49,168 nucleotides of DNA from Flavisolibacter sp. (GTDB taxonomy: Bacteria > Bacteroidota > Bacteroidia > Chitinophagales > Chitinophagaceae). A model generated the notes under the pieces. It was not told the DNA's origin. It saw only the letters and a list, made by a program, of their open reading frames with translations, and searched no databases. The first letter of the stretch is position 1; each line of letters starts with the position of its first letter. Both the position numbers and the translations under genes were made by a program. Where the stretch lies: positions 1 through 49,168 of the forward strand of contig JBJMLT010000455.1 of the NCBI GenBank assembly GCA_045805165.1, given 5' to 3'. Of this stretch, positions 20,349 to 36,656 are shown one piece after another.

Positions 20349-22447
20349 CTTTTATAATAGTTATATTTCAAACAAGAATTTAATAGACCAATCGAATCAA
20401 TTAATTATTAATTTTATAATGAGGCAGTTTTTGAAATTTTTGCATTTCATTTTCTATATCCAATAATTCTTTAAAAGGAATTTCGCCAATTTTGTGAGTA
20501 AAAATTCACTTAAACCCAAAGGACCTGCGGCTTTATTTAATCCAGGGACAATCACATACACGATCCCTTCACCAATTTTCTCTCCATTGTTCTGGTTCAT
20601 ATGAAATCTGGATGACTGAGCTATTCCCTTCATAAAAACTGGAATACAATAATAAAATCTCTCTTGTTTCTATAATAGCGAATAAATGTCCACCATTCCA
20701 TAAAAAATATTGATCCAGGTGTTGACGGTCCTCTTTATTAAATAACAAATTACTCCCCATAATAGGTACTTTTTTCCTATTATCGCTGTTCTTCTCTCAT
20801 AAAGCTTTGCGAAGTAAGTCCACAGACTCACTTAATTTAAATCGTTCCCCTAATACTACTGATCCAATTCCAAGCGAAAGCTTGCAGAAAAATCGATCTA
20901 CAGAATTTGTGCTTAAAGAGACACTTACACTTTGTTCTTTATTGACATTAGACTTCAAATTGAAATACAATTGCTCCAAGTCTTTTGGAATTACATAAAA
21001 ACCCTTGTGGTTAATTCGTCCATTCCCAATAAAAAAGAGTTGGGAAAATTCTGAATTACAGAATTAATAATAGCTGGATGCCATAGGGATTGTTTGAGGT
21101 ACGGCCTCTAAAGAATTCCAGAAGCTGCTTACCGAACGAAACGAATGGGTAGAGGAAATTGATATTGATAAATTCATTAAGAAAGCCCCTTGCCGAGTTG
21201 GAACTTTTATTATCAATGAATTTAAATTTAGTCACTATTTTAAAAGAGGTCACTCACTTTATTTCTTTAAAGATCAATTAATGGAATTGGCCCGGCAATT
21301 AAAAACCCGGAATGTGGATTTGGAACGGTATATAGAATTAAAACAGGACCAGGAAAAGTTTGAACAGTTGGTATCCGGAATTTTTAAACCCACTTCCGGC
21401 AAATAAAAAAAGAAACATTTTCACCTTCCTTCCTACTTAAAAAATGTCACTTCCAATCCTGTTCCTTTACCGCTAGTTGAAATCGTTAGGGAAGACCTTA
21501 AACAATTAAAAGAAGAATTTTTTAAATTTAAACTGTTTACCTACATCGATATTTACAAAGGCAACCACGCTATGATGAAATATATCTATTATGTAGAACA
21601 TTACATCGACTCAGAAACCAAGAAAAGGGCTCGTAAATGGTGTGAAAGCTTCAATATTGCCAGTCATGTGTTGCACAAATCACCCGAAAAAAAGAAAATT
21701 TCATTCCTGTACCGGAAAATGAATTGATTCAACTTTAGTTCGAAGTTTATTTTCGTTTTCCTTTTTCAATTTTCAATACTTCAGATTCCAAGTACATGGC
21801 TTTCGTTCTACCCTTTATTAATTGAGGCTTAACGATTCCTATCTGGATGGCCTGCAATAAAAGGGTTTCCATATATTATATAGTTTAAATGATAAATTCA
21901 AATAGATAAAATAGAAAATGATAATTAAAGGAGCATAGAAATTACTATTAAATCATTTGATGTTGTTCACATAAAAAGCAGGGTAACTAAATAGAAACCC
22001 TGGTGGCCTGCCTTAAATGGTTGCAAGCAATCGTTAGCCGCCTGGATAGGAATTTACTTAAAACTAAATACAATCTCCTTTTAATTAAAAAGAACAGGAT
22101 GTAAAGACATCCCGTTAACATGAGAAAAATCGAATCTCTTGAATCTGAACTCGCCATTTTAAATTCATCGACCCAACCATTTAAAATAATCTATTCAAAT
22201 ATTATCATTAATTCCTTACTTACACGGATAAACGGAATTTATTTACTATTCTACTTTATATAATTTTATTGGCTCCATTCAAAAATCAATAGCTATATTT
22301 TTTTTCTAATCAAACGTTTTTTAAGTTTTACTTGCCTGGATCTTCGAAAAGAATAGTTCTGTTTTTAAAATTCGTGGAGAAAAAGAGGCGCGACATTATT
22401 TAACCATCTATTAAACAAGATAAGCATCAATTCTTGAATTATTCTTG

Positions 22448-22455
22448 TAGGTTTG
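22448..22455 (+). promoter_or_regulatory. Bacteroidota -7 box (TAGGTTTG) of small ORF copy 1
   Basis: Matches TAnnTTTG and lies 5 nt before the ATG, the same spacing as in copies 2 and 3. Confidence 0.7.
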
Positions 22456-22460
22456 TAAAA

Positions 22461-22625
22461 ATGCCAAGTAAAATAAATCATATTCTTATTTCCCATTCCT
22501 CTAAGTGTGTCATACTTGACATGAGTGATTGTTATACCTGGTCATTTCCTGAATTTGTACCTTTTTGTCTCCATCTTTATTACTTCTCCAACTTCAAAGA
22601 CTTTAAAAAGCTAGCCCAAGCCTAA
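22461..22625 (+). CDS. 54-aa small protein / leader peptide, copy 1
   Basis: MPSKINHILISHSSKCVILDMSDCYTWSFPEFVPFCLHLYYFSNFKDFKKLAQA. Paralogous to 26731 and 35469. Confidence 0.8.
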   Translation: MPSKINHILISHSSKCVILDMSDCYTWSFPEFVPFCLHLYYFSNFKDFKKLAQA

Positions 22626-22643
22626 CCTGTTTTAGGGCTTGGG
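22615..22643 (+). terminator. Hairpin overlapping the stop of small ORF copy 1
   Basis: CCCAAGCCTAA/TTAGgGCTTGGG stem, weak U-tract. Confidence 0.55.
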
Positions 22644-22958
22644 GTTTCACAAGTAATCATTTCGCCCTTAACGAAGTGCAGGATTGCACTATACTGAATG
22701 AAGATGAGTTTCTTCAGAAATTAGTTGGCCTGGTTACATATTGACCAGTGCGATCCTTATGCGATACGGTGTAGTGTAGTATCGAAAATAGCGCGGCTGA
22801 AATTATACCAAGAATTTAGCCGGTCTCCGAAAATATAGAGCTGCAGTTTCGGTATTGAGCTTGCACTTAAATTCATCAGGGGGGAATAAATTAATTGTTG
22901 AATGAAACTTATACAAAACAGTTTGCAATTCTATAAACCTTCATTAATCATAATTATA

Positions 22959-23363
22959 ATGAAAAAAATAAAAAATAAGCTTGTACTTCGAAAAGATGAC
23001 TTCGAACTACTGATTGCTTATGTAAAAGGGCGCTTCAATAGAAGCTCATTCGACAGACGAAATGCCGAAGACCTCGAAGCAGAGCTAAAAAAAGCCACGC
23101 TGGTAAACATAGAGGATTTTCCTCCCGATGTAATAAGATTGAATTCCAGAGTAAAAGTAAAAGAAGAAAAAAAAGACAAAATAATGGAGATAACATTAGT
23201 TACTCCAGAAAAAGCTGACATAAAAGAAAGAAAAATTTCCATCCTGGCCCCTATCGGCACAGCGCTCATAGGGTTTCGAAAAGGACAGAAAGTACAATGG
23301 AGAGTTCCTTACGGCAAAACAACATTTACCATAATGGATGTTCAAAACCAATTTGGCTTATAA
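22959..23363 (+). CDS. GreA/GreB family, Rnk-like regulator
   Basis: LEAELKKA..PPDVIRLNSRV..TLVTPEKADI..ISILAPIGTALIG. The short N-terminus is typical of Rnk-type proteins. Confidence 0.85.
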   Translation: MKKIKNKLVLRKDDFELLIAYVKGRFNRSSFDRRNAEDLEAELKKATLVNIEDFPPDVIRLNSRVKVKEEKKDKIMEITLVTPEKADIKERKISILAPIGTALIGFRKGQKVQWRVPYGKTTFTIMDVQNQFGL

Positions 23364-23383
23364 TTCAACTAAACTATTAAGTC

Positions 23384-23893
23384 ATGACACAATATATAAT
23401 TGGAGCATTAATAATAGGGTTTATGGCTATTCCGCTTCGTAAAAAAATTCTTGAAAAAAGGAAAATTAGAAAAAAAGAACTTGGCATAGTAAACACGTAT
23501 GATCGCCTTGTACGAGAGTATAAACTAATTATCGAACAATACGACACTATCAATCACAAGCTAATAGGGTTAGATAGAAAAAACAAGAAGCTCTTGATTA
23601 TTGATCATAGCGACAACAACAGGCAAGAGGTATGTGTTCCTTTACTTCAAATAAGTAATTGCAAAATTGTCCAAGTCCGAAATGAAGCTGAAAGATGTAT
23701 TAAGTCCATTTACCTGGAGTTACTGAACAAAAGAAATCCCACCGACAAGGTAAGGCTTTCCTTTTATGATGAAGAGCAAGATAAGCTACGTGAGTTGCCA
23801 GCTTTAGCAAGAAAAGCTTTGCATTGGAAAAATACAGTTGACGTCCATAAATATCCAGGCAATATTTATATAGAGTCTGGGTACCTTTTATAG
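23384..23893 (+). CDS. Single-pass membrane hypothetical protein (paralog of 27019)
   Basis: N-terminal TM segment. IGLDRKNKKLLI motif shared with 27019. Confidence 0.75.
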   Translation: MTQYIIGALIIGFMAIPLRKKILEKRKIRKKELGIVNTYDRLVREYKLIIEQYDTINHKLIGLDRKNKKLLIIDHSDNNRQEVCVPLLQISNCKIVQVRNEAERCIKSIYLELLNKRNPTDKVRLSFYDEEQDKLRELPALARKALHWKNTVDVHKYPGNIYIESGYLL

Positions 23894-24037
23894 GTGCGTT
23901 TGAAAGACAATTTCCAAGATCATGGGCGCACATATAAAGCATTTAAGGCCGTTGGTTAGTAGCCCTTGCCACCGTTCAAACAAGCTGCAATACAATGTAT
24001 ATCACAGCATGATCTACTCACCAAAAAACAATTTGTT

Positions 24038-24244
24038 ATGCGTAACATTCACACCGATATATTGATCCTTGCCAAAGAGAACTGTGAATTTTTGATAGAT
24101 GTCCTTAATAAAAATATAGGTGTCCTCAACGAGAAAAAATTTCATTGCTTTTTGGATAAAATTGAAGAAGCTGATCATCTCGATACATTTGCTCGACTCA
24201 ATTATTCATATACGATAGTGCTTCCCGAATTAAGCGGACCATAG
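24038..24244 (+). CDS. Small hypothetical protein
   Basis: In-frame ATG within track ORF 23966..24244. Confidence 0.4.
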   Translation: MRNIHTDILILAKENCEFLIDVLNKNIGVLNEKKFHCFLDKIEEADHLDTFARLNYSYTIVLPELSGP

Positions 24245-24415
24245 AAAATGTAAGGTTTCAGTATTATTTCCTATTGGAAGGTCTTTATTTGGTTGCAACC
24301 TGGGAGACAATATTTTCTGGCGAACATCTGGCGGAAAAAGGTTTTTCATGATTATGGCAGTTTCTCAATTTGCTTTTTGATCATAAGTGTTTATTATGGA
24401 GAACACAGCTAAATC

Positions 24416-24480
24416 AAAAAAGTGCCCGCTGTTGAAACAGCGGGCACAACCAAAACTAACTGCTATATGTAGTTACATAT
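24416..24480 (-). ncRNA. Candidate ~65-nt small RNA
   Basis: Minus-strand TACTTTTG box (24486-24493), a 5' ATATGTA/TACATAT hairpin, and a perfect 11-bp GC-rich terminator stem (24422-24447) with U6. No ORF. Confidence 0.55.
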
Positions 24481-24496
24481 CAAAACAAAAGTACAA

Positions 24497-24524
24497 TAAT
24501 AGAAGATAAATTTGTCCTCTATTA
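24497..24524. promoter_or_regulatory. Palindromic operator, degenerate copy of 32851-32884
   Basis: TAATAGAAGATAAA|TTTGTCCTCTATTA, 12 of 14 positions symmetric. Confidence 0.65.
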
Positions 24525-24789
24525 CAAAACAAACTTACTTTGTTCTTAAATAATGAAAAACAACCATAAATATTTTAAAAGAACCCCGTAGCTTTTAGAA
24601 AGGAAAGATTGTTTCGAATGACATTCTACTTCCGTAAAGACTTAACGCAGGATGGAGGTTTCAATGATTACCTTGAGCTTGGCGTAATGTCAACTTAAAG
24701 GCAAAGTATTACGGTGTCGATGAATTCGCCACTGATAAGTAAATAAAGCAATGCAGGCCTGCGCTGCAGCCAAATAATTCAACGTAGAT

Positions 24790-26613
24790 ATGGATCAATC
24801 ATATAAACCTGAAAACATTCCATTCGAACAAGAAAACATCTTTACGCAAGTTCCTATGCATACAGATCATCACCAACATAAAAAGGAAAGCTTTATCGGA
24901 AAATATATTTTCAGTAAGGACCATAAGATGATTGCGAAGCAATTTCTAATTACAGGGATCATCTGGGCGATAATAGGCGCTTTTTTTTCCGTTGTTTTTC
25001 GGCTGCAGTTGGCCTACCCTCAACAAACATTTCCTTTTCTTGAAACTATTTTCGGAAATGCTGCACACGGGGGGAGAATAACGCCGGAATTATATTATTC
25101 CCTTCTAACGCTGCACGGCACTATCATGGTTTTTTTTGTGCTTACCGCAGGCATGAGCGGCACCTTTGCAAACTTCCTCATTCCACTTCAGGTGGGGGCG
25201 CGTGATATGGCCTCTCCATTTCTCAACATGCTCTCCTATTGGTTCTTCTTTCTTTCAAGTATCGTGATGTTTTCCTCTTTATTTGTTGCCACAGGGCCAG
25301 CAGCAGGGGGATGGACATCTTATCCTCCGCTCAGCGCACTAGGCCAGGCATCTCAAGGTTCAAAAGTCGGCATGGATCTCTGGCTCACCAGCATGTGTCT
25401 GTTTATTGTTTCCCAATTGCTTGGAGGCATTAATTACGTTACTACTATTCTGAATTTGAGAACAAAAGGTATGAGCATAAATAGACTCCCTCTAAGCATT
25501 TGGGGTCTATTCTTTACTGCAATACTCGGAGTGTTGTCGTTCCCGGTTTTATTATCCGCATTTATCTTATTGGTATTTGACCGCCACCTTGGAACTAGCT
25601 TTTATCTCTCTGATATTGTAATAAACGGTGAAATACTTTCCAATGAGGGTGGTAGCGCCATTCTTTACCAGCACTTGTTCTGGTTCTTGGGACATCCCGA
25701 AGTTTATATAGCTATTCTTCCTGCAATGGGGATTGTTTCAGAAGTTATGAGCGTCAATTCCCGCAAACCAATTTTCGGTTACGTAGCCATGATAGGCTCT
25801 CTTTTTGCAATTTGCGTTCTTGCTTTGCTTGTTTGGGCACACCATATGTTTGTTAGTGGCATGAATCCATTTGTAGGATCTGTGTTCGTCCTACTTACCT
25901 TGTTGATTGCCATACCTTCAGCGATAAAGGTTTTTAACTGGATCACAACTATTTGGCGGGGAAACATCCGCTTTACTCCAGCAATGCTGTTTTGCATCGG
26001 TTTTGTAAGTGTATTTATTTCAGGTGGTCTGACTGGTATATGGATGGGAAATTCAACAATTGACATACATATTCACGACACCTATTTTATTATTGCGCAT
26101 TTTCATTTGGTAATGGGCGTTGCTTCATTCTTTGGTCTTTTTGCAGGCGTATATCATTGGTTTCCGAAAATGTTTGGGCGGTATTTGAATACTACTCTCA
26201 GTTATATCCATTTCTGGGTGAGCCTGATAGGAGCTTATCTGATTTTTTGGCCCATGCATTACATGGGACTTGCGGGTGTTCCGCGTCGTTATCTTGATTT
26301 CAGCGTATGGACCTCATTTAATAAGTTCAACGACCTGAATAAAATGATCACCATCGTAACCATCATTGTTTTTGCTACAAACCTCATGTTTGTTTTTAAT
26401 TTCTTTTATTCGATTTTTAAAGGAATAAAGGTGACAAATGCCAATCCGTGGAACTCTAACACTCTTGAATGGACTACCCCCATTATTCCAGTCCATGGCA
26501 ATTGGCCTGGCGACATCCCTGAAGTCCATAGGTGGCCTTATGACTACAGTAAAAATGGTAAGGATTTTACGCCCCAGACAGAACCCACTACCCTTAATGA
26601 ATCAACACTTTAA
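24790..26613 (+). CDS. ctaD: Cytochrome c oxidase subunit I (heme-copper oxidase, A-type)
   Basis: DHKMIA, LHGTIM, GGWTSYPPL, FWFLGHPEVY, WAHHMF, HDTYFIIAHFH and GVPRRY motifs. Confidence 0.93.
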   Translation: MDQSYKPENIPFEQENIFTQVPMHTDHHQHKKESFIGKYIFSKDHKMIAKQFLITGIIWAIIGAFFSVVFRLQLAYPQQTFPFLETIFGNAAHGGRITPELYYSLLTLHGTIMVFFVLTAGMSGTFANFLIPLQVGARDMASPFLNMLSYWFFFLSSIVMFSSLFVATGPAAGGWTSYPPLSALGQASQGSKVGMDLWLTSMCLFIVSQLLGGINYVTTILNLRTKGMSINRLPLSIWGLFFTAILGVLSFPVLLSAFILLVFDRHLGTSFYLSDIVINGEILSNEGGSAILYQHLFWFLGHPEVYIAILPAMGIVSEVMSVNSRKPIFGYVAMIGSLFAICVLALLVWAHHMFVSGMNPFVGSVFVLLTLLIAIPSAIKVFNWITTIWRGNIRFTPAMLFCIGFVSVFISGGLTGIWMGNSTIDIHIHDTYFIIAHFHLVMGVASFFGLFAGVYHWFPKMFGRYLNTTLSYIHFWVSLIGAYLIFWPMHYMGLAGVPRRYLDFSVWTSFNKFNDLNKMITIVTIIVFATNLMFVFNFFYSIFKGIKVTNANPWNSNTLEWTTPIIPVHGNWPGDIPEVHRWPYDYSKNGKDFTPQTEPTTLNESTL

Positions 26614-26730
26614 TTTTGATATACAAAAGGCTTTTGATGGCACTAGCCAAAAAGTAGGGAGAAAAAATGTTTTAACCAACTATTAATCGCATACACGAAA
26701 CATCTGAGTTTAAATTGTAATTTTGTATAA

Positions 26731-26895
26731 ATGACAGGTAAAATAAAATATACTGCAATCACTCCTTCTATTGAATATCTCATACTTGACATGAGCGACA
26801 GTTATACCTGGTCATTTCCTGAATTTATTCCTTTTTGTGTCCAGCTTTTTTATTACTCCAATTTCAAAGATTTTAATACTTCGACCCAAGCCTGA
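26731..26895 (+). CDS. 54-aa small protein / leader peptide, copy 2 (absent from the ORF track)
   Basis: MTGKIKYTAITPSIEYLILDMSDSYTWSFPEFIPFCVQLFYYSNFKDFNTSTQA. TAATTTTG at 26718-26725; hairpin at 26885-26910. Confidence 0.8.
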   Translation: MTGKIKYTAITPSIEYLILDMSDSYTWSFPEFIPFCVQLFYYSNFKDFNTSTQA

Positions 26896-27018
26896 TTTAG
26901 AGGACTTGGGATTTGCGCTTTCCCTATTTTACTCATTTATGTTTGTTAGTCAGGACGTAATGGTTTTGTCTAAAACACTAAATACTTTACCGCATTTATC
27001 ATTCTAAAACTCGTCGTT

Positions 27019-27543
27019 ATGTCAACAGTATCCATTGCCTTGATTATAATAGGTTCGATTGCTGCTATCATATTAGTGTTAGTTTATATCAGCAATAACG
27101 ACCAAAAGAACAAAAAAGAAAAAATATTGAGCCAGTTTAACCATGCGGGCACTGAAAGCAATATGTCATTCATAAGTCAGGAATTACTCCATGATAGAAT
27201 CATCGGGCTCGATGGGCTAAATAAAAAACTCTTGATCCTGGAAAGCAACGAGGATGATTATGACCATACAATCATCAATCTTCAAGATGTCAAAGCTTGC
27301 AATGTTAAAAAAATATATCAGGCTACTAATATTGGAACTTCAAGAAAGCCGGTAATCGAACAGCACCTTGAAAAAGTTGTACTCCTATTTGAATTTAAAG
27401 ATGAAAAGAGAAAAATAGAAATGCCTTTTTTTGATTTTAGCAAAAACCACATCTACCAATTAGCAGAGATGGAACAAAAAGCAAAGTTTTGGGAGGCAAG
27501 CCTTTCTAAATTTATTACTAGCAGCGTAAAAAAAATTGCTTAA
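27019..27543 (+). CDS. Single-pass membrane hypothetical protein (paralog of 23384)
   Basis: N-terminal TM segment, IGLDGLNKKLLI and C-terminal KAKFW. Confidence 0.78.
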   Translation: MSTVSIALIIIGSIAAIILVLVYISNNDQKNKKEKILSQFNHAGTESNMSFISQELLHDRIIGLDGLNKKLLILESNEDDYDHTIINLQDVKACNVKKIYQATNIGTSRKPVIEQHLEKVVLLFEFKDEKRKIEMPFFDFSKNHIYQLAEMEQKAKFWEASLSKFITSSVKKIA

Positions 27544-27987
27544 ATAAATTGTTCAATATGATGGATAAGCACCTCGAGCGAAGTAGGCAAAGGCAACATA
27601 TCAGCATATTACCCGGTTGATTAGTATTTGAATCATCACGCTAATCTCGTAAATACTGTGCGTTATTTTGAAAACATTCGATTTAGGAAATACTGCACCC
27701 CCGATCAAGATTCTTCAAGTACGCAACTAGTTTTGTAAGTCACATAAATCAAAAGCTTACTTCCCTTAGACATTAACAAGGTGCATTTGATGATCTCATC
27801 CGGATTTAAAATCCGACTTAAAATTTTCCAGAATAGTATTGCAATAATGTCGACTAGCGCCAAGGTAAATTATGAAACTTACGGGTTTATCTTCCATTTT
27901 TCCACTCCAAAAATATTTATTTGTGGTAGTCCCCCCACGTAATTGAAGCGGCAAATAATCAAGGATCTTAAAAAAAGAAGGACGGGA

Positions 27988-28015
27988 TGTAACCTTTATG
28001 TTGTTTGTTACTCTA
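27988..28015 (+). promoter_or_regulatory. ECF-type promoter TGTAACC-N16-CTCTA
   Basis: Same motif upstream of gap and of the ECF sigma gene. Confidence 0.65.
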
Positions 28016-28056
28016 TTGAAATGTGAACGCTATTAATTTATTCTAAAATAACTAAA

Positions 28057-28593
28057 ATGGAAACAAGGAAATATTTTCAAAAGTGCATTTGCATAATCAT
28101 GTGCTGCGGCCTGTTTTTGGTGTCTGCTATTGCTCAAGACAAACCTAAACTCTCTGATGCTGAGATAGCTTCTGTTGCTGTTGTCGCGAACCAGATTGAT
28201 ATTAACTACGCGCAAATAGCAAAGCAGAAATCCAGGGACTCAGCAGTCATAAAATTTGCTGAAACAATGGATCGTGATCACAAGGCAGTAATTGCTCAGG
28301 CGGTAGCGCTGGTCAAAAAGCTGGGTATAACCCCGCAAGATAATGCTGTAAGTAAAAGTTTATTGGTTGATGCCGAAAAGACAAAAAAGATATTACGTTC
28401 AAAATCTGGAAAAGCATTTAACAAGGCCTATATAGATAATGAAGTAGCCTATCACAAGGCAGTAATCAGCGCTGTGGATGGTCTTTTGATACCTCAAAGT
28501 AAAAACCAGGAGTTAAAAGGGCTTTTACAAAACGTGTTGCCTGCATTGAAAGCCCATCTCATGCATGCAGAAATGCTACAAAAAAATTATTAA
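28057..28593 (+). CDS. DUF4142 secreted protein (ferritin-like)
   Basis: Signal peptide; LSDAEIA..ANQIDI..FAETMDRDH..FNKAYIDNEVAYH..HLMHA. Confidence 0.85.
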   Translation: METRKYFQKCICIIMCCGLFLVSAIAQDKPKLSDAEIASVAVVANQIDINYAQIAKQKSRDSAVIKFAETMDRDHKAVIAQAVALVKKLGITPQDNAVSKSLLVDAEKTKKILRSKSGKAFNKAYIDNEVAYHKAVISAVDGLLIPQSKNQELKGLLQNVLPALKAHLMHAEMLQKNY

Positions 28594-28595
28594 AA

Positions 28596-28940
28596 ATGAA
28601 GAACCGTTTATCAATAATCAAAAATGGGGTCCTTCTATTGTTTTCCATAATTCTTTTGGAAAACTGTTCCCAAGCTCCGGAAAACGCAAATCCAAAGTCG
28701 TATTTGGTTGAGATAAAAGCAATGCAATTTCAACCTTCGGAGCTTATAGTACATCGAGGGGATACAATAGTCTTTATAAACAGAGATATACTTGTGCATG
28801 ATGTAACTGAAGAAACTAATAAGGCCTGGACCTCATCCCCCTTGTCCACCGGCCAATCTTTTAGTCTGGTAGTAAGTGAGAACGCAGACTATTATTGTTC
28901 AATTCACCCTGTCATGAAAGGCAAACTACTTGTCCAATGA
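28596..28940 (+). CDS. Plastocyanin/azurin-like cupredoxin (putative lipoprotein)
   Basis: MQFQP..GDTIVFIN.D..HDV and YYCSIHPVMKG type-1 copper ligands. Confidence 0.88.
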   Translation: MKNRLSIIKNGVLLLFSIILLENCSQAPENANPKSYLVEIKAMQFQPSELIVHRGDTIVFINRDILVHDVTEETNKAWTSSPLSTGQSFSLVVSENADYYCSIHPVMKGKLLVQ

Positions 28941-29182
28941 GTTTGTTATCCGGCATGCATTTCTTTTATGGGTGCTTTTAAAGATAGTCATACTGATCAT
29001 TCGGCAAGGTTTTCAAATTGAATAGTTTAGATAAAAGATTTATAAAGATGAACCATCATGAAGAGCGAATATTGATTGTTGAATGTAGTATCTAAAAGAG
29101 CTAATAAGGACTACAACTTTCAAAGAGTGTACTACGAGAACATCCTAGAAATGAAGTCCTAATTTATAAATCATGCACCAAT

Positions 29183-29851
29183 TCAAAACGTACCGATTAT
29201 TTCAAAAACTCTACGCACAATAGCATCACAATAAATAAGGTTAAAAGGATAGAGTTCGGTACGTGAATAGGATTGTTCTATCTGATTTTTAAGCATCACT
29301 TTAGCACGATTTAACCTGACCTTTACATTAATGTCGGTAATATTTAAAATGTCGGCAGTTTCTGCTACCGAGAATCCCTCAACTTCTCTTAATACAAAGA
29401 CGGTCCGATAAGTTAAAGGAATATCACTGAGGCTCTTTTCCAAAATATCAGTAAATTCATGAGAGAGTAACATTTTATCAGTGTTATTTCCAGTTGCTTT
29501 TAAATACATAGTCGGATTATTAAATTCATGGACTTGCTCGGTAGAGATTTCATTCTTATGGTATCCATATTTCAGTTTATACAGGCAATTATTAATCATG
29601 ATTCTGGAAATCCATGTTTTATACGAGGAACGACCTTCAAACTTGCTAAGAGCCATATAAGCAGCAACATGTGTATCCTGCATCAAATCCTCAGCATCAT
29701 GATGGCGAAAGCCATAACTTCTGGCAATTTTATACAGAAGCGAATTGTATCTCTTTACTAAAATCTCAAATGAAGTGACGTTTCCACTTAATATTTTCGC
29801 TATTATCCAATATTCTGATTCCACTTCTACATGTTCAACTACGTTCTGCAT
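29183..29851 (-). CDS. ECF sigma-70 factor with a C-terminal Cys-containing extension
   Basis: AEDLMQDT..FEGRSSYKTWISRI, YRTVFVLREVEGFSVAETA..VKVRLNRAK and C-terminal YPFNLIYCDAIV. Start uncertain (29851 or 29884). Confidence 0.9.
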   Translation of the reverse strand: MQNVVEHVEVESEYWIIAKILSGNVTSFEILVKRYNSLLYKIARSYGFRHHDAEDLMQDTHVAAYMALSKFEGRSSYKTWISRIMINNCLYKLKYGYHKNEISTEQVHEFNNPTMYLKATGNNTDKMLLSHEFTDILEKSLSDIPLTYRTVFVLREVEGFSVAETADILNITDINVKVRLNRAKVMLKNQIEQSYSRTELYPFNLIYCDAIVRRVFEIIGTF

Positions 29852-29918
29852 ATGTAAATATTTATCGGTTATAAAATTATTCAAGGCAACCTAATCATAA
29901 TTAGATGAGGTTCTCCTT

Positions 29919-29945
29919 TAGAGCAGGTAGTGCTTATAGGTTACA
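29919..29945 (-). promoter_or_regulatory. Candidate autoregulatory ECF promoter TGTAACC-N15-CTCTA
   Basis: Reverse complement of TAGAG-N15-GGTTACA, directly upstream of the sigma gene. Confidence 0.55.
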
Positions 29946-30254
29946 TTTCATTCCAGAGATTTTATCACTCCGCATATTCAGTTAAAAAAAATCTTTTACA
30001 GCAACAATCGTCTTAAGCGCTATTTTCGATTCATCTTCCATCTCAACAGATGGATATTACGATGAGTTTGTATTAATCTTATCATCTTTTCGCACGACTT
30101 ATTCCTCCGTCATCCAGCAACAAGTTTACTTATCCTCTGAACTCAGGCAATTTTCAAGTAATTCCAAAAAATTTTCATTTTTTTTCAATGTAACTCGACA
30201 ATCCATAATACTACCTAAATTTAGAAACACTAACAAGGAGATTCATTGCTCGCT

Positions 30255-30584
30255 TTAAGACCCAGAAATGCTGATGGTGATATCGTTAAGATCATTATTA
30301 ACATGCATGTGACAGGATAGTCTAACGTCCGACTCGAAAATGCCCAATTTCTTAAGGGTAGTTTCTTCGTTTCCAAACTGTACTACATTTTTGTTATATC
30401 CTGAAACCCTCACCATACAAGTTCCGCACCTTCCCATTCCTCCGCATTGGCCAAAGTCATCAGGTCCGATTTTATCCTTAAGTAACACCATCAGGTTCCG
30501 GTATTCATTTTCAAAGGTTCTCAGCGTGTAGTCCCTGTCGTCGTAAGTGCCTACAAATTGTATTGTGTATGATCTTGAAAGCAT
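30255..30584 (-). CDS. 2Fe-2S ferredoxin
   Basis: CGGMGRCGTC...RLSC motif. Confidence 0.88.
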   Translation of the reverse strand: MLSRSYTIQFVGTYDDRDYTLRTFENEYRNLMVLLKDKIGPDDFGQCGGMGRCGTCMVRVSGYNKNVVQFGNEETTLKKLGIFESDVRLSCHMHVNNDLNDITISISGS

Positions 30585-30633
30585 AAATTTCGTTTTATAA
30601 TCTTACATGTTTCCAGGTTGGCTAAAGATTAGG

Positions 30634-31065
30634 TCATCTCTTTAAATACCTCAGACCCTGGGTCAAACCCTCATTGAACTCTCCAACTGTTTTTGATTTC
30701 AGCATATCGTGAATTTGCTTTCGTATAACCTTGAATTCATCATGAAGAGGGCATGGTTTTTTTTCCGAACAATTTTTCAGACCCATTCCACAACCAATAA
30801 ATAATTTATCGCCATCGATTGCACTTACAATATCCGCCACAGTGTGCTTTTTTGATAATTCATCCAGGAAAAACCCACCATTAGGGCCTTTAGTAGACTG
30901 TACAAGGCCCTTCTTGTTTAGCTGCTGCAAAATTTTTGCAATAAATTGTTCTGGGGCAACGATTCCCTTAGAAATCTCCTTTACTCCTACCTTAAGTCCA
31001 GTATCAGATTTCTGGGCAATAAACATCATTGCCCGCATCGCATATTCACAGGTCTTTGAAAACAT
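30634..31065 (-). CDS. Rrf2 family transcriptional regulator (Fe-S ligands present)
   Basis: MFSKTCEYAMRA, STKGPNGGF and CGMGLKNCSEKKPCPLH motifs. Confidence 0.93.
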   Translation of the reverse strand: MFSKTCEYAMRAMMFIAQKSDTGLKVGVKEISKGIVAPEQFIAKILQQLNKKGLVQSTKGPNGGFFLDELSKKHTVADIVSAIDGDKLFIGCGMGLKNCSEKKPCPLHDEFKVIRKQIHDMLKSKTVGEFNEGLTQGLRYLKR

Positions 31066-31102
31066 GAATTCGTTTATAAATTAAAAATTTGGCCATAATC
31101 AT

Positions 31103-31370
31103 TTACAGAATATTGACTGTTTTATTTGCCAGTTCGTCATCTAACTGAATCTCACAAGATAAAACGAATTTCCTGGTGTTAGTGTGGGCCTCGCGAATCT
31201 CTACACCGCAAGTCCCACAACTTTCTCCGCCGTAGCAAATTCCAAATCCTCGAACCGGTAAATGCTCTGAAATTAAGCACATTAATGAGCCATGCTGGCT
31301 TGCACTCGGCAACATATAGGTTTTCCTTCATAGTAAAAGCAACTATAATCGTATTGTTCTCAGATTGCAT
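31103..31370 (-). pseudogene. Second 2Fe-2S ferredoxin-like gene, apparently frameshifted
   Basis: ATG 31370 (MQSENNTIIVAF) is out of frame with the CYGGESCGTC...LSC part; the span is 268 nt. Confidence 0.55.
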
Positions 31371-31722
31371 AATACACACCTTCCAAAAATTGTTTTAGCA
31401 CCAACGCATGAGTTAATTTGTCATATTTTGTGCTATACAAAAATGTTATTATTTGCTTGCGTTTATGACGTTCTATAAAATCATCCATCTCCTTGTTGCG
31501 TTTTAGTTCTGCTAAATATTTCTTTTTGAATTCCTCCCAGTAAAAGGGATCAAAGTCAAACCAGTTTCCTAGCACTTCTGTCGGAGCCAAATCTTTCGCC
31601 CATTCATTTATCATTGCCTCGTTTCTGGTGAGTCCTCTTGGCCAAAATCTATCTACCAATATCCTATAACCATCACCCTTTGATGGACAGTCATAAGCCC
31701 TTTTTAGTTTTATAATCGACAT
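31360..31722 (-). CDS. DUF488 (YeaO-like) protein
   Basis: IKLKRAYD..DGYRILVDRFWPRGL..WAKDLAP. Confidence 0.88.
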   Translation of the reverse strand: MSIIKLKRAYDCPSKGDGYRILVDRFWPRGLTRNEAMINEWAKDLAPTEVLGNWFDFDPFYWEEFKKKYLAELKRNKEMDDFIERHKRKQIITFLYSTKYDKLTHALVLKQFLEGVYYAI

Positions 31723-31780
31723 ACTAAGAAAAATTAAGTTTGTCAGCAAAGCTTCGTGACACAAATAGGAACAGCTATGC

Positions 31781-32248
31781 CTAAATATTTTTTACTGGAA
31801 TGATTAGCAATGGTATTGAACTGTGATGCAAAACCTCTTCTGCGACGCTTCCCAATAACATTTTTTTTAATCCTCCTCTCCCATGAGTACCCATTACAAT
31901 CATATCGACACCTGATTCAGATGATACCATGAGGATGTTTTCAGCACAACGTCCATTTTCCACAACTAGATAAGTGTTTCTTTCATCGAAGCTCTTCTGA
32001 ATGTTTTTCAGAAAATTGATAGCGATTTTTTTTAGTTCGACTACTGTATCCTTTTCCACTAAATCCTCATTGCTAAAAATACCAAAGCCGGTTATCGGTG
32101 AATAGTTAAATGATGAATAATAGCTCGCCTCGGAAGTCACATGCAATAAGATGACCTCTGCTTTCATAGCTGCAGCCAAAGCATATCCGATTTCCGCTAT
32201 TTTGTGAGCAGAGGAGTCAAAATCCAGAGCAATAAGTATTTTCTTCAT
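31781..32248 (-). CDS. Universal stress protein
   Basis: KKILIALDF...DMIVMGTHGRGG..LLGSVAEEVL. Confidence 0.93.
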   Translation of the reverse strand: MKKILIALDFDSSAHKIAEIGYALAAAMKAEVILLHVTSEASYYSSFNYSPITGFGIFSNEDLVEKDTVVELKKIAINFLKNIQKSFDERNTYLVVENGRCAENILMVSSESGVDMIVMGTHGRGGLKKMLLGSVAEEVLHHSSIPLLIIPVKNI

Positions 32249-32318
32249 AATGATATGTTTTAGCGTACATCAATTGTTTAATGATTCATTCTGATGTCTA
32301 TGAGTAAAATCTATTCAT

Positions 32319-32747
32319 TTAAGCCATTAATTGCATTGGAAACACAAAATCATGAAATATGTTGTTGTTCGCTCTTTTTACATGTTTGGCGTACTTCTCA
32401 AGACTAGTATGCAATCTTTTGCCATACTTTATGTCAAGTTTGTTAATAATAAAATTTAATTTTTTTATTTCTTCCTTCAACTCATTTCGGTTCTTTTCAT
32501 CGAATGGTGAATATTCAGCTATAATGTCCCCAAACATTTTTTGAAATTTCTCTTCTACTTCGATGTAATAAAGGGTAAGTAAAAGAAGCGCAGCGTATTT
32601 TTTTAAATGTGTTAACTTGATTGCATCTGCCTTTTGTTTCTCATTTATCGAATTAAAAGAACATGAAGCCAATACTGATACAAAAACGGCCGCTTTGTAT
32701 AACAATACATGTTCACCAATCGTTAATTTCTCTAATTGCTTAATCAT
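32319..32747 (-). CDS. Hypothetical protein
   Basis: First ORF of the minus-strand operon. Start at MIKQLEKL preferred. Confidence 0.6.
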   Translation of the reverse strand: MIKQLEKLTIGEHVLLYKAAVFVSVLASCSFNSINEKQKADAIKLTHLKKYAALLLLTLYYIEVEEKFQKMFGDIIAEYSPFDEKNRNELKEEIKKLNFIINKLDIKYGKRLHTSLEKYAKHVKRANNNIFHDFVFPMQLMA

Positions 32748-32850
32748 AAATTCAGCATTAAATGACAAATAAGTGATACGACCTACCATTTACCACTTAG
32801 CCTAGTAAGTGCATCGGCTACTCCGATATTGCATGCAATTTACTAAAATA

Positions 32851-32884
32851 AAATAATAAAGGACAAATTTGTCCTTTATTATTT
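32851..32884. promoter_or_regulatory. Perfect 34-bp palindrome, candidate Rrf2 operator
   Basis: AAATAATAAAGGACAAA|TTTGTCCTTTATTATTT between divergent operons. Confidence 0.8.
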
Positions 32885-32972
32885 ATTTCTTAAGTAACTT
32901 CGCTGTAAAAAAAGTCGCAGCTCTTTAAACACAGGCTTCATCAAATATTTAAAACTCTAAAACCTCAAAGAA

Positions 32973-33284
32973 ATGAAGATCATTATCCAAACAATAAATT
33001 TCAGAATAAGTTCTGCACTAAAATCTTTTATAAATGAAAAGATAGCCAAACTCTACCGACAAAATGAAACTATTGAAAATGCCAGCGTGACTCTTCGCAA
33101 AGAAGACGAACGTAGAAATGCAAATAGGTCATGTGAAATCAGATTAGCTATACAAGGCAATGATCCACTCGTGAAAAAGAATAGTAAGGTTTACGAAAAG
33201 TCAATTTCCCAAGCCGTACAGGCGTTGCAAAAAATACTGCGGAGAAAAAAGTCAAAACAACTTGCAAAGAGACATTTTAGTTAG
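32973..33284 (+). CDS. Ribosome hibernation factor HPF/RaiA family
   Basis: MKIIIQTINF..ALKSFINEKIAKL..CEIRLAIQGND. Confidence 0.82.
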   Translation: MKIIIQTINFRISSALKSFINEKIAKLYRQNETIENASVTLRKEDERRNANRSCEIRLAIQGNDPLVKKNSKVYEKSISQAVQALQKILRRKKSKQLAKRHFS

Positions 33285-33395
33285 CCTTTGAATTACCGGA
33301 AACCCTACTAAGGGTTTCAACAAAAAAGCTAGATTAATTGACCCGATGCCTCATTAATGATTTGGGCTATTCAAAGCTACATAAAACCATAGACC

Positions 33396-34778
33396 ATGCA
33401 TTCAAAACAAAATCTTTCATTTCGCAAAAATCCTATGTTCTTTATCCTATGCCTAAATAGTTTAAACTTTATTGTGGGGCTTGCATACAAAAACCTTCTT
33501 CCGTCTTTGACTATAGGTTTACTCCAGATAATAATTTATATTTTACTTCAATCCTTTCGGAGTAGACGCATAAAAAATCAAAACCAAACATTTAATATTT
33601 CCTTTATCCGAACTCGATCAGAGCGGAATGGCTCAATCACCTTGAACAAAGCGCTTGAAGAGAGCCTCAAAATTACTATTGGAAACAGTCAATGCAAACT
33701 ACCATTTCAAACAGGAGTTTTTGATATTGCATTCCCTCTTACAAATGCAAATGCAAATGCGATATCCGATTTTACCAGTTCCAACTATAAACAACCGGAC
33801 AATTTGTATGAAAGCAGTATTCGCTTTTATGAGTTTTTCGATGGTGGGTTGCTTTTGCAGCTTGAACCCGCAGGCATGAGTAGCACTAATCCAGAACAGA
33901 AAAGCTTCGACGCTAAGGAATTTTCAACACAGGCACGGAAGTCCGAGACAAAATTGATAGTCCTCAATCTTACTTCTAACAAACAGATGGAGGGTATTAT
34001 GGTATCAGACTATTGTTCAACGATAAAGTCAGAAAATATAGGTTCACAAAACAGCTTTCTTCACAGGTTTTCAACTTTTTATGATGCAGACGGAATGATT
34101 TCTTTTCTTTCGACATTGAGAAAACTATCAGGAGGAAAACCAATAGGACTTCGCACATTAATACATGATGACAGTGAATTTAATAAAATATGCTTTGCAA
34201 TTAAAAAATCCGAAATATATCCAGATTTCATTATTGTGGAAGGCGAGGATTACGAAAATAAACCTGTCCAGATAAACAAAAGTTCTAAGAAATGTTTGCC
34301 CATGTACGAAGCATTACAAACTAGTTCAAAAACGCTGCAACATTATAGGCTGAATAAGCATATTTTAATCATTGGAGAGCAAAAAATCACTTCTGGGTTT
34401 GACCTGCTTAAAGCATTTGCTTTTGGGGCTCAAATGGTTCACTCAACTGTTCCGAATGCGATCAATCATTCAATGCATTTAAGAAGGAATATTTTTCTAA
34501 AGAAAGATCTGAGGAAATTTCAAGAACACATTATACATGAGCTAGCAAGAATTATGCAGGCATTCAAATTTGAAAACATTAAAGATATCACATGCGCAAG
34601 GTTTATGAGAAGCCTGATTTGTTTTAACGAACACTTTGGAGTATTAAATGATGAATTTAAGTCAACATATGAACAAATCTATAATAAGTATAAATCGAAC
34701 GATCACCTACAACTCGGTGAAAGGGAGGCTAAAAAAATGGATATTTTGAAAATCAATACTAGTAATAATGAAAAATAA
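33396..34778 (+). CDS. Highly diverged FMN-binding glutamate synthase family protein
   Basis: LRKLSGGKPIG, YPDFIIVEGE and ITSGFDLLKAFAFGA are recognisable, but other conserved motifs are eroded. Confidence 0.65.
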   Translation: MHSKQNLSFRKNPMFFILCLNSLNFIVGLAYKNLLPSLTIGLLQIIIYILLQSFRSRRIKNQNQTFNISFIRTRSERNGSITLNKALEESLKITIGNSQCKLPFQTGVFDIAFPLTNANANAISDFTSSNYKQPDNLYESSIRFYEFFDGGLLLQLEPAGMSSTNPEQKSFDAKEFSTQARKSETKLIVLNLTSNKQMEGIMVSDYCSTIKSENIGSQNSFLHRFSTFYDADGMISFLSTLRKLSGGKPIGLRTLIHDDSEFNKICFAIKKSEIYPDFIIVEGEDYENKPVQINKSSKKCLPMYEALQTSSKTLQHYRLNKHILIIGEQKITSGFDLLKAFAFGAQMVHSTVPNAINHSMHLRRNIFLKKDLRKFQEHIIHELARIMQAFKFENIKDITCARFMRSLICFNEHFGVLNDEFKSTYEQIYNKYKSNDHLQLGEREAKKMDILKINTSNNEK

Positions 34779-34901
34779 AAAAGATTGGCAAGTATATAAA
34801 GTTGAGGAGGTTGCAACAAACGCAACCATCTCTCATATTACTAACTCGAAAGGAAACAAAAATTATGCAGATACTTGCTGCATTTTAAGCAAACTATTAA
34901 T

Positions 34902-35294
34902 ATGGAACCGACGCAAGATATAATGACAGTGGAAGATATTAAACTCTTCGTGGATGGCTTTTATGAAAAGGTAAGGCAAGATGAATTACTTGCCCCTGTC
35001 TTCAACGAAAAAATTCAAAACTGGCCTCAGCATCTTGAAAAAATGTACGCATTCTGGCAAACCGTTTTATTTGGCAAGCCCGCCTATAAAGGAAGTCCCT
35101 TCCCCCCACATGCGAAGCTTCCAATAAATTATATTCATTTCACAAAATGGATTGAACTATTTGTTTCCACTATTGACAAACTTTTTATAGGTAATAAGGC
35201 AAGGGAGACAAAATGGAGAGCAGAAAAAATGGCCGAAATGTTTCAAAATAAGATTGAATATTACCGTACTCAGGGATCAAGTCCTTTGGTCTAA
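34902..35294 (+). CDS. Group III truncated hemoglobin
   Basis: DIKLFVDGFYEKVRQDELLAPVF..WPQHLEKMYAFW..PFPPH..HFTKWIELF. Confidence 0.9.
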   Translation: MEPTQDIMTVEDIKLFVDGFYEKVRQDELLAPVFNEKIQNWPQHLEKMYAFWQTVLFGKPAYKGSPFPPHAKLPINYIHFTKWIELFVSTIDKLFIGNKARETKWRAEKMAEMFQNKIEYYRTQGSSPLV

Positions 35295-35468
35295 ATGTAA
35301 GAAGGCAAAACATTCATGTTAGATGAAATTAGTAACGGTACAAAGTTCTTTGACAATATATCTGATGCTGAGACGCGGTGACGTCAAAAGGCTAATTGAA
35401 ATCAAAAAACTATAACAATGTTTCAACTTCCCGGAAGTTAATCAAAGATTCGTAGTACATTTGAGTAA

Positions 35469-35633
35469 ATGAATGGTATTGTTTCAAATAATTTTTTAAG
35501 TTCCTTCGAGAAGCACCTTGTACTTAATACCAGGGACTGCTACACCTGTTCATTTACAGAATTTTTCCCTTTTTGCATTAAATTATACTACTTCTCGACT
35601 TTCAAAGACTTTAATACTCTCACCCAAGGCTAA
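35469..35633 (+). CDS. 54-aa small protein / leader peptide, copy 3 (absent from the ORF track)
   Basis: MNGIVSNNFLSSFEKHLVLNTRDCYTCSFTEFFPFCIKLYYFSTFKDFNTLTQG. TACATTTG at 35456-35463. Confidence 0.8.
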   Translation: MNGIVSNNFLSSFEKHLVLNTRDCYTCSFTEFFPFCIKLYYFSTFKDFNTLTQG

Positions 35634-35658
35634 CCTTCAAAGTCTTGGGTTATTTTTT
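35622..35658 (+). terminator. Hairpin with U-tract overlapping the stop of small ORF copy 3
   Basis: ACCCAAGGCT/AGTCTTGGGT (one G-U pair) followed by TATTTTTT. Confidence 0.65.
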
Positions 35659-35936: not shown

Positions 35937-36656
35937 ATGGATATAATACCAATCGTCCCACAAAATTATTTCAACGAAGGAATATTTAGAAATTTCGGAA
36001 TTGGCTGTTGCTATGAGGATAGCACTCTTGAGCAACACATTGGATGTGAAATAAATATTGAAACTGCACATTCGAAAATGGAGCAAACGAGCGAAGCAAA
36101 CATCGAAAAGTTCGAAAAATTGGATGAATGGAAACTTGATTCACTTATTGAATACATGGTCACAAACTATCACAAAAGTGCAAAAGACAACATTATCACT
36201 ATTTATGATCTGGCAGAAAAAATTTCATTCAAGCATGGAGCAAAGCATCCAGAATTACAAAAATTAACTGCATTTCTTTTTTTGCTTTTTGATGATTTAT
36301 TATCTCACTTTAAAATGGAGGAGGATATTCTGTTTAAAAATATTCTGCAATTGCTTGAACTACCAAAAGCGAGTGATCTAACAACTAATTCCGGATTTTG
36401 GTCTATAAAAAAGTCAATAACTGCAATGAAGAAAGATCATGAAGCAACATTTAAAGATTTGAGATTCCTTCGCGTTCTTACAAGTAATTACATGATTCCT
36501 GTGGATGGCTGCGTGTCCTACAAATTCCTGTTTGAAATAATGAGACAATTCGAAGATGACTTAATAAGGCACATTTGCATTGAGAATAATATTTTGTTCG
36601 TGAAGGCGATAGAGCTGGATGAAAAGGTTGAGGAACAGAAATTACAAGTGTTATAA
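35937..36656 (+). CDS. Repair of iron centres (RIC/YtfE/ScdA-like) hemerythrin-domain protein
   Basis: HGAKHPEL, HFKMEEDILF, DHE and HICIENNILF motifs. The N-terminal DFCCGG motif is degenerate (GCCYE). Confidence 0.82.
   Translation: MDIIPIVPQNYFNEGIFRNFGIGCCYEDSTLEQHIGCEINIETAHSKMEQTSEANIEKFEKLDEWKLDSLIEYMVTNYHKSAKDNIITIYDLAEKISFKHGAKHPELQKLTAFLFLLFDDLLSHFKMEEDILFKNILQLLELPKASDLTTNSGFWSIKKSITAMKKDHEATFKDLRFLRVLTSNYMIPVDGCVSYKFLFEIMRQFEDDLIRHICIENNILFVKAIELDEKVEEQKLQVL

What the first reader, a model, noticed from the sequence alone, without database searches (positions are those of the whole stretch)
22448..35658. Three copies of a leaderless 54-codon small ORF fused to a conserved stop-codon hairpin: candidate new leader-peptide or small-protein system
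Seen in sequence: ORFs at 22461-22625, 26731-26895 and 35469-35633 are all exactly 54 aa. Their N-terminal ~16 aa differ, but they share [VI]L[DN]xxD[CS]YT[WC]SF[PT]EFxPFCxxLxYxSxFKDFxxxxQ[AG]* with no indels. Several differences are synonymous (GAT/GAC, TAT/TAC, TGT/TGC, AAC/AAT), which suggests selection on the peptide. Each ATG lies exactly 5 nt after a TAnnTTTG box, and each stop sits inside a CCCAAG...CTTGGG hairpin. Established: TAnnTTTG is the Bacteroidota -7 element, so the ATG falls at about +1. Inference: fixed length, C-terminal conservation anchored to the stop, and an overlapping hairpin fit a ribosome-arrest or attenuation leader. It would control the downstream stress genes (Rnk-like operon, membrane paralog, RIC), and the invariant Cys and Phe/Tyr richness could serve in sensing. 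An independently acting small protein with its own terminator is the alternative. I do not recognise the family.
Basis: partly seen in the sequence, partly recalled or inferred. Interest (0 to 1): 0.88.

Follow-up and report, generated by a model that had tools for sequence, protein, structure and literature searches.

The report
Leaderless KDF leader-peptide attenuator family
Three short genes in this window belong to a conserved family of soil Chitinophagaceae mini-genes, unmatched in the libraries searched, that start at the predicted first base of their transcript and likely stall the ribosome beside an RNA hairpin to decide whether the genes behind them are transcribed.

Summary
Confirmed: three 54-codon ORFs, each with ATG 5 nt after a TAnnTTTG box and the stop inside a hairpin; a fourth copy lies on another contig. 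The family is common in Chitinophagaceae (43 of 150 genomes by RNA model) and under peptide-level selection (omega 0.07 in codons 17-48). No Pfam, NCBIfam, Rfam or PDB match. Length, the cysteines and the stop position vary, down to 17-20 codons. What is kept is the leaderless start, a C-terminal aromatic...K-[DAV]-F motif and a covarying hairpin 13 nt after the Phe codon. In 140 of 149 loci the leader heads one cassette (two-helix membrane protein, PH-fold membrane protein, Rnk), almost never with a promoter box in between. The hairpin lacks a U-run. Best reading (0.6): a cis-acting arrest peptide that likely controls read-through, probably through Rho. Stalling, signal and polarity are untested. 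Outside Chitinophagales, homologs of the PH gene sit behind a different leaderless uORF ending PFHxFW-stop.

The parts
22397..22416 (+). Operator-like repeat (TTTAAC-n5-ATTAA) upstream of the copy 1 promoter; binding protein unknown
22448..22455 (+). -7 promoter element TAnnTTTG, copy 1
   Evidence: spacing to start site from passages of PMC6847099
22461..22625 (+). Leaderless 54-codon leader ORF, copy 1; putative arrest motif in codons 39-48 at 22575-22604
22615..22643 (+). Conserved hairpin, 5' arm 13 nt after the first base of the Phe48 codon
22902..23363 (+). Rnk-like gene (GreA/GreB C-terminal domain; real start probably 22959)
23384..23893 (+). Single-pass membrane protein of the PH-fold family, paralog a
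   Evidence: fold predicted for paralog b
26669..26688 (+). Operator-like repeat upstream of the copy 2 promoter
26718..26725 (+). -7 promoter element, copy 2
26731..26895 (+). Leaderless 54-codon leader ORF, copy 2; motif codons 39-48 at 26845-26874
26885..26910 (+). Conserved hairpin, copy 2
26938..26945 (+). Extra TATGTTTG box, not conserved in the family; possible internal promoter of this copy
27019..27543 (+). Single-pass membrane protein with predicted PH-fold domain, paralog b
   Evidence: AlphaFold2 pLDDT 92; best match 7dti_B, Z 10.3, rmsd 3.3, 102 aligned
35456..35463 (+). -7 promoter element, copy 3 (no strong operator-like site)
35469..35633 (+). Leaderless 54-codon leader ORF, copy 3; motif codons 39-48 at 35583-35612
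35623..35649 (+). Conserved hairpin, copy 3
35937..36656 (+). RIC/ScdA-like hemerythrin-domain gene, first gene after copy 3
   Evidence: TIGR03652 E 4.5e-39, below its cut-off

Best explanation
Each unit is a conserved, purifying-selected short ORF with a fixed hairpin at the head of one gene cassette, and it likely works as a cis-acting leader whose nascent aromatic...K-[DAV]-F motif would stall the ribosome and so likely set transcriptional read-through. SHOWN BY SEQUENCE COMPARISON: promoter box 4-6 nt before an in-frame start; peptide-level selection; a covarying hairpin 13 nt after the Phe codon; the same cassette behind it, almost never with its own promoter box. INFERRED: transcription starts on or 1 nt before the AUG, so a ribosome loads at the 5' end and follows RNA polymerase. 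Under an unknown condition the peptide arrests elongation with Asp47 or Phe48 in the P site. Termination arrest is unlikely because the stop position varies. The stalled ribosome would cover about 15 nt each side, that is the C-rich, G-poor codons 42-51, and abut the hairpin without melting it. I commit to TnaC/SpeFL/CruR-type logic: the stalled ribosome masks a rut-like stretch from Rho, the hairpin is an RNA polymerase pause, and the cassette is transcribed; without a stall Rho would stop transcription in the pyrimidine-rich 41-57 nt before the next gene (about 0.4 for this polarity, 0.6 for cis attenuation of either polarity). In 54-codon forms, residues 20-36 would be a tunnel sensor segment that short forms lack.
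For: Selection: omega 0.07 for codons 17-48 (90 sequences) against 0.57 for codons 2-16 (91); invariant residues use all synonymous codons, e.g. Pro34 43/27/15/13 and Lys46 52/46. Frame: exact box plus start is in frame with the motif in 111 of 151 loci, only out of frame in 3, absent in 37. In 25 divergent members found by the RNA model, not by peptide, the K-x-F frame is open for 25 or more codons in 25 of 25 (other frames 16 of 50), with a leaderless start in 22. Minimal forms of 17-20 aa in several genera keep box, motif, hairpin and cassette (L163, L168-L171). Hairpin: 6 or more contiguous pairs from Phe48+13 in 65 of 98, against 3-14 of 98 at eleven offsets away from the stem; 66 double-change cells against 22+-10 shuffled, 0 of 500. 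Cassette within 900 nt downstream in 140 of 149 loci, against 1 upstream and 1 on the other strand; conversely 30 of 30 Chitinophagaceae loci picked by the two-helix gene have the leader. Promoter boxes behind the hairpin in 4 of 151 loci. Not an intrinsic terminator: median loop 15 against 6 nt, TTT in the first 5 nt in 18 of 107 against 43 of 104 control hairpins. C-ending codons are enriched only in codons 40-48 (0.55 against 0.38 expected; 108 of 129 loci). Rho is present. AlphaFold2 gives no fold (pTM 0.12, 62 sequences). Homologs of the PH gene outside the order follow a different leaderless uORF in 25 of 27 loci.
Against: No RNA, ribosome-profiling or reporter data: transcription, translation, stalling and Rho action are all unobserved. 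No conserved alternative (antiterminator) pairing was found: the consensus fold has only the hairpin, and 3' arm plus downstream sequence has median z -0.07. The C>G skew after the hairpin (81 of 111) is only modestly above control 5' regions (39 of 65). The C-richness of the motif codons follows partly from the amino acids. The hairpin is weak or missing in about a quarter of loci (stem of 6 or more in 114 of 151). The covariation set (84 rows) was chosen from loci that already had a stem, which inflates it. Close homologs were found by peptide patterns, so part of the core conservation is by construction, and related genomes are not independent. Residues 20-36 are as conserved as the motif in the main subfamily, which also fits a binding surface in trans. 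Copy 2 has a possible internal promoter (26938), and the usual first cassette gene was not detected after any of the four copies in this genome.
Confidence: 0.6

Rival explanations
1. Same cis leader, opposite polarity (counted inside the 0.6 above): the hairpin is a weak, factor-assisted terminator. A ribosome that runs to the stop codon covers the 5' arm and allows read-through; a stall at K-x-F or loss of coupling lets it fold and shuts the cassette off.
For: In most members the stop lies from just before the 5' arm to the loop, so a terminating ribosome would cover the arm. The tail is 42% T, and some copies have fair U-tracts (copy 3, L014).
Against: Long loops and poor U-runs; none of the three window hairpins is called a terminator; the stop lies well past the hairpin in some members (11-23 codons after the Phe).
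Confidence: 0.2
2. The peptide is a trans-acting small protein made as the first cistron; its aromatic C-terminal motif binds a partner (the PH-fold protein, Rnk/RNA polymerase or the ribosome), and the hairpin only stabilises or ends its short mRNA.
For: A 30-residue conserved core in the main subfamily. The neighbour has a PH fold, whose best structural match is a peptide-bound PH domain. Gene callers annotate many members as proteins.
Against: The core can shrink to about 10 residues with only two residues in front. The motif-to-hairpin distance is fixed to the base while the stop moves. Every paralog heads its own transcription unit. No predicted fold.
Confidence: 0.2
3. Cis control at the level of translation or mRNA decay: the stalled or terminating ribosome and the hairpin change initiation at the next gene or protect the downstream mRNA.
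For: The hairpin-to-next-ATG distance is held at 41-57 nt in 44 of 59 loci with a two-helix-type first ORF.
Against: The hairpin does not include the downstream start, and no conserved alternative pairing reaches it.
Confidence: 0.12
4. A type I toxin-antitoxin locus, or a non-coding RNA/DNA element with an incidental ORF.
For: Small multi-copy ORF with a hairpin; some nucleotide-level constraint (Asp47 GAC 86% against 36% background).
Against: Antisense promoter boxes at below-background density (9 of 149 loci, 0.16 against 0.34 per kb); a membrane-grade hydrophobic window in 1 of 139; no 5' UTR; omega 0.07 and kept frame; no Rfam hit.
Confidence: 0.04

Closest known systems
TnaC, SpeFL and CruR (uORF-dependent attenuation by Rho)
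   Same: Short uORF at the head of an operon with a conserved C-terminal motif; in these systems a stalled ribosome masks a rut site next to or inside the uORF (passages of PMC12360218). C-rich, G-poor motif codons here.
   Different: No sequence match. Those stall at the stop codon; here the stop position varies. This family is leaderless, multi-copy, carries a fixed hairpin and has no known ligand.
MsrDL (macrolide-sensing leader over an intrinsic terminator)
   Same: Very short aromatic leader whose ribosome overlaps a hairpin that gates transcription (abstract and passages of 10.1101/2021.11.29.470318).
   Different: MsrDL stalls at termination and has a U-tract terminator and a resistance gene behind it; none of these was found here.
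Sec/YidC monitoring arrest peptides (SecM, MifM, ApdA/P, RQH family, uC_KYxIW, Bacteroidota NSP/NAP-stop)
   Same: Variable N-terminus with a short conserved C-terminal motif; uC_KYxIW has its essential motif 7-11 residues from the stall site (passages of PMC10987492).
   Different: No signal or membrane segment, no RAPP-like motif, not upstream of secA/secDF/yidC. The motif strings were absent from 12 supplementary files, one of them cut when stored. The PFHxFW uORF seen in passing fits this class better.
Rnk / GreA-family operons
   Same: The cassette encodes an Rnk-like factor (NF004396 at or just under cut-off; PDB 2pn0, 3bmb), which allows feedback on RNA polymerase pausing.
   Different: I found no report of a peptide leader before rnk (listing only). 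A terminator in the E. coli greA leader is recalled, not checked.

Membership tests
Ribosome-arrest leader peptides (class) | Translated uORF at the 5' end of the regulated transcription unit | tested here: met
   By sequence only: box, in-frame start, selection and cassette; translation itself not observed
Ribosome-arrest leader peptides (class) | Short conserved C-terminal motif with dispensable N-terminus | tested here: met
Ribosome-arrest leader peptides (class) | Ribosome stalls at a defined codon in a peptide-dependent way | not testable with these tools
   needs toeprinting or ribosome profiling
TnaC/SpeFL/CruR Rho-dependent attenuators | Sequence homology to the known peptides | tested here: not met
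   no Pfam, NCBIfam or PDB-sequence hit
TnaC/SpeFL/CruR Rho-dependent attenuators | Stall at the stop codon at a fixed distance from the motif | tested here: not met
   1-23 residues follow the Phe
TnaC/SpeFL/CruR Rho-dependent attenuators | C-rich, G-poor rut site under or beside the stalled ribosome | tested here: inconclusive
   C-ending codon excess in codons 40-48; weak skew after the hairpin; Rho present
Intrinsic-terminator attenuators (trpL, MsrDL type) | GC-rich hairpin followed by a U-run | tested here: not met
Intrinsic-terminator attenuators (trpL, MsrDL type) | Alternative antiterminator pairing or tandem control codons | tested here: not met
   none found; no run of one amino acid
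Sec/YidC monitoring substrates | N-terminal signal or membrane segment and a sec/yidC gene downstream | tested here: not met
Type I toxin-antitoxin | Hydrophobic helix, repressing 5' UTR, antisense promoter | tested here: not met
   start codon at the predicted +1/+2

The most novel reading that the evidence does not exclude
A leaderless, multi-copy arrest-peptide attenuator of Bacteroidota with a new motif (aromatic run plus K-[DAV]-F) that stalls elongation at a fixed distance from an RNA polymerase pause hairpin. It would report ribosome state to an operon encoding an Rnk-like RNA polymerase factor and a membrane PH-fold protein, closing a feedback loop on transcription-translation coupling. 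It has replaced, or parallels, a class-wide secretion-monitoring uORF (signal peptide plus PFHxFW-stop) in front of the same PH gene, so two undescribed arrest-peptide families would control one gene family.
Probability: 0.3. Interest if true: 0.85.

Novelty: new variant of a known kind. Interest (0 to 1): 0.7.

Why it matters
Arrest peptides are found one family at a time, and each has shown a new way to silence the ribosome or a new ligand. Few are known from Bacteroidota, where leaderless mRNAs are rare (5.5% and about 3.7% in passages of PMC9723704 and PMC7366714). This family gives a testable minimal unit of 17-20 codons in natural variants, type strains that carry it (Chitinophaga, Niastella, Flavisolibacter), and exact predictions for stall codon and hairpin. 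It would also test whether Bacteroidota couple transcription and translation, and give a first regulatory handle on Rnk-like and bacterial PH-fold proteins.

Tried and rejected
Library searches with no family hit for the peptide: Pfam, NCBIfam (one weak CwrA hit for P0092, far below cut-off), PADLOC, Rfam at gathering threshold (10), PDB sequences. ESM Atlas gave no usable hit for homolog P0030, which shows neither absence nor novelty (136). Literature: ten searches listed no paper on this family; most subscription papers and bioRxiv supplements are not covered, so a listing in an unseen uORF or small-protein supplement is possible. Expression: no RNA holder listed (44); two DNA runs covered the stretch only in patches (126); neither is evidence. 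Complex prediction of peptide with the PH domain: no verdict (135). Foldseek gave no match at E<=0.001 for the PH protein (91). Programmed frameshift: no X XXY YYZ site seen in the codon table (31). DNA palindrome in the K-D-F codons: Lys46 wobbles freely (52 AAA, 46 AAG), rejected. Homology between the KDF and PFHxFW leaders: profile comparison probability 0.1 (101). KDF leader near 27 out-of-order PH loci: none (85). Weak RNA-model hits: 6 of 29 inspected rows (L211, L212, L237, L241, L243, L244) lacked the cassette and were dropped (64), as was protein hit L173 (48); the other weak phylum hits were not inspected. Viral contigs: 1 weak locus, not examined (118). Outputs were cut in the middle; counts come from later scripts.
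Full report
OBSERVATION. The three ORFs are at the stated coordinates, give 54 aa each and align without indels. Each ATG lies 5 nt after a TAnnTTTG box, and these are the only three such sites among 18 plus-strand boxes in the window. Published start-site mapping in Flavobacterium puts 4 or 5 nt between this box and +1 (passages of PMC6847099; -12 to -5 in PMC9723704), so the AUG would be at +1 or +2. In this genome, box-to-ATG spacing over 2307 ORFs has a first peak at 4-5 nt. A fourth copy lies on contig C61, and an RNA model finds exactly these four at E<1e-12.

DISTRIBUTION. The peptide matched 12 of 24 congeners and 0 of 16 genomes of other families, 76 of 400 family genomes at E<=0.01, some by chance, and 166 stretches in GTDB, of which the best 80 were kept and are mostly named Chitinophagaceae. 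The RNA model hit 43 of 150 family genomes. In a phylum draw of 150 it gave one strong hit outside the order, G698, with the full anatomy. No Pfam, NCBIfam, Rfam, PADLOC or PDB-sequence match was found.

IT IS CODING. Among 98 distinct close copies, 90 start with ATG and 8 with GTG; the exact box lies 5 nt upstream in 62 and 4-6 nt in 74; none of 97 has an SD-like motif. Omega is 0.07 for codons 17-48 and 0.57 for codons 2-16. Invariant residues use their synonymous codons freely. Lys46, Phe48 and Asp20 lay outside the peptide patterns and are still kept in 98, 96 and 95 of 98. In a wider set of 151 loci, box plus start is in frame with the motif in 111, only out of frame in 3 and absent in 37.

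WHAT IS REALLY CONSERVED. Weak hits proved to be true, divergent members. Their N-terminal parts are unrelated and vary from 10 to 49 codons before the motif Phe. Forms of 17-20 aa (L163, L168-L171) keep box, motif, hairpin and cassette; in L163 an in-frame stop lies directly before the Met. In 25 members found by the RNA model rather than by peptide, the K-[DAV]-[FL] frame is open for at least 25 codons in all 25 (other frames 16 of 50), 22 have a leaderless start, and 11 stop two codons after the Phe, before the hairpin. So neither the 54-codon length, the cysteines nor the stop position defines the family. The short aromatic...K-x-F motif does.

THE HAIRPIN. Its 5' arm starts 13 nt after the first base of the Phe codon: 65 of 98 have 6 or more contiguous pairs from there, against 3-14 at eleven offsets away from the stem. 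It covaries (A-U to C-G and G-C at two positions; 66 double-change cells against 22+-10), with the caveat that those 84 rows were chosen from 114 loci that had a stem. It is not a standard terminator: median loop 15 nt against 6, TTT in the first five bases in 18 of 107 against 43 of 104 hairpins between convergent genes, and no call by the terminator scan. No conserved alternative structure was found. C-ending codons are enriched only in codons 40-48 (0.55 against 0.38; 108 of 129 loci). Rho is encoded.

THE CASSETTE. Behind the hairpin the family carries a 55-60 aa two-helix membrane protein (alone or fused to an FMN glutamate-synthase-like domain), a single-pass protein with a predicted PH fold (pLDDT 92; Z 10.3, rmsd 3.3, 102 aligned) and an Rnk-like factor. 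At least one of these lies within 900 nt downstream in 140 of 149 loci, against 1 upstream and 1 on the other strand. The two-helix gene starts 41-57 nt after the hairpin in 44 of 59 cases. All 30 Chitinophagaceae loci fetched by that gene have the leader; 1 of 3 outside the family does. Promoter boxes behind the hairpin occur in 4 of 151 loci, so the cassette appears to depend on read-through. In this window copy 1 precedes rnk and a PH paralog, copy 2 a PH paralog and copy 3 a RIC-like gene, inside a cluster of oxidase, globin, Usp, hibernation-factor, Rrf2 and ferritin genes; the two-helix gene was not detected after any copy here. An operator-like repeat lies about 63-44 nt before the start (10 bits or more in 56 of 132 promoters, 0 of 132 shuffled); the three best sites in this genome are the promoters of copies 1, 2 and 4.

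MECHANISM. A motif of about ten residues that can be preceded by two residues, is followed by a movable stop and is fixed to the base against an RNA hairpin is the anatomy of a nascent-chain arrest peptide, not of a folded protein (AlphaFold2 pTM 0.12, weak evidence alone). From general ribosome geometry (my knowledge, not a call), a ribosome with Asp47 or Phe48 in the P site covers the C-biased codons and abuts the stem, and one or two more codons would melt it. I therefore propose elongation arrest that masks a rut-like stretch and lets RNA polymerase, paused at the hairpin, read into the cassette, as described for TnaC, SpeFL and CruR (passages of PMC12360218). I put 0.6 on cis attenuation, about 0.4 on this polarity and 0.2 on the reverse. 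A trans-acting small protein keeps 0.2, because residues 20-36 are strongly conserved in the main subfamily and nothing here was measured in cells. The signal is unknown; the neighbourhood suggests low oxygen, nitrosative or stationary-phase stress, which is inference.

A SECOND LEADER. Outside Chitinophagales the PH gene has homologs in many families (28 of 300 genomes). In 25 of 27 such loci it follows a different ORF of about 113-127 aa, usually leaderless, with an N-terminal hydrophobic segment and a C-terminal [FY]-P-F-H-x-F-W-stop motif. It has no family match and no detectable homology to the KDF leader. In Niastella both units sit back to back. That the same gene family follows two unrelated uORF types supports leader control.

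COMPARISON AND VERDICT. It likely works like the known uORF attenuators but is not a member of any named family: no homology, no stall-at-stop geometry, no U-tract terminator, no signal peptide. Ten literature searches listed nothing on it, and the motif strings were absent from the readable supplements of PMC10987492; coverage is incomplete. New variant of a known kind; interest 0.7.

Noticed in passing
L248-L274 (e.g. L257:1029-1388 +); L063:366-707 -: A second unannotated uORF family across Bacteroidia: usually leaderless, about 113-127 aa, N-terminal signal or membrane segment, C-terminal PFHxFW-stop motif, 80-130 nt before the PH-fold gene (25 of 27 loci). It looks like a SecM/ApdA-type monitoring arrest peptide and deserves its own study.
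   Followed up: partly
window 22397-22416 and 26669-26688; G000:C61 about 1444-1463: Operator-like direct repeat TTTAAC-n5-ATTAA with 11-nt period before many leader promoters; the three best sites in the genome are leader promoters; binding factor unknown.
   Followed up: partly
L168, L169 (L169:1541-1776): Two leaders in tandem, each with motif and hairpin, in front of rnk; the first is a 20-codon leaderless form.
   Followed up: partly
window 24038-24377: Apparently broken second rnk paralog after the PH gene of copy 1 (tblastn 24195-24377).
   Followed up: no
window 33396-34778: Diverged FMN glutamate-synthase-like gene (Pfam E 1.5e-07) upstream of copy 3, related to the fused cassette gene of other loci.
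   Followed up: no
window 24790-26613: Stand-alone cytochrome c oxidase subunit I gene between copies 1 and 2, without neighbouring oxidase subunits in the ORF list.
   Followed up: no
family codon 7 (window 22479-22481): His7 is always CAT (58 of 58, background 60%), suggesting a nucleotide-level constraint about 20 nt after the start.
   Followed up: no
window 19114-20135: CAP12/Pycsar-type TIR-domain ORF (Pfam PF10137, E 4.8e-05, 19263-19775) that appears split over several frames.
   Followed up: no
L309 (IMG/VR contig): One weak match to the leader in a viral contig; context not examined.
   Followed up: no
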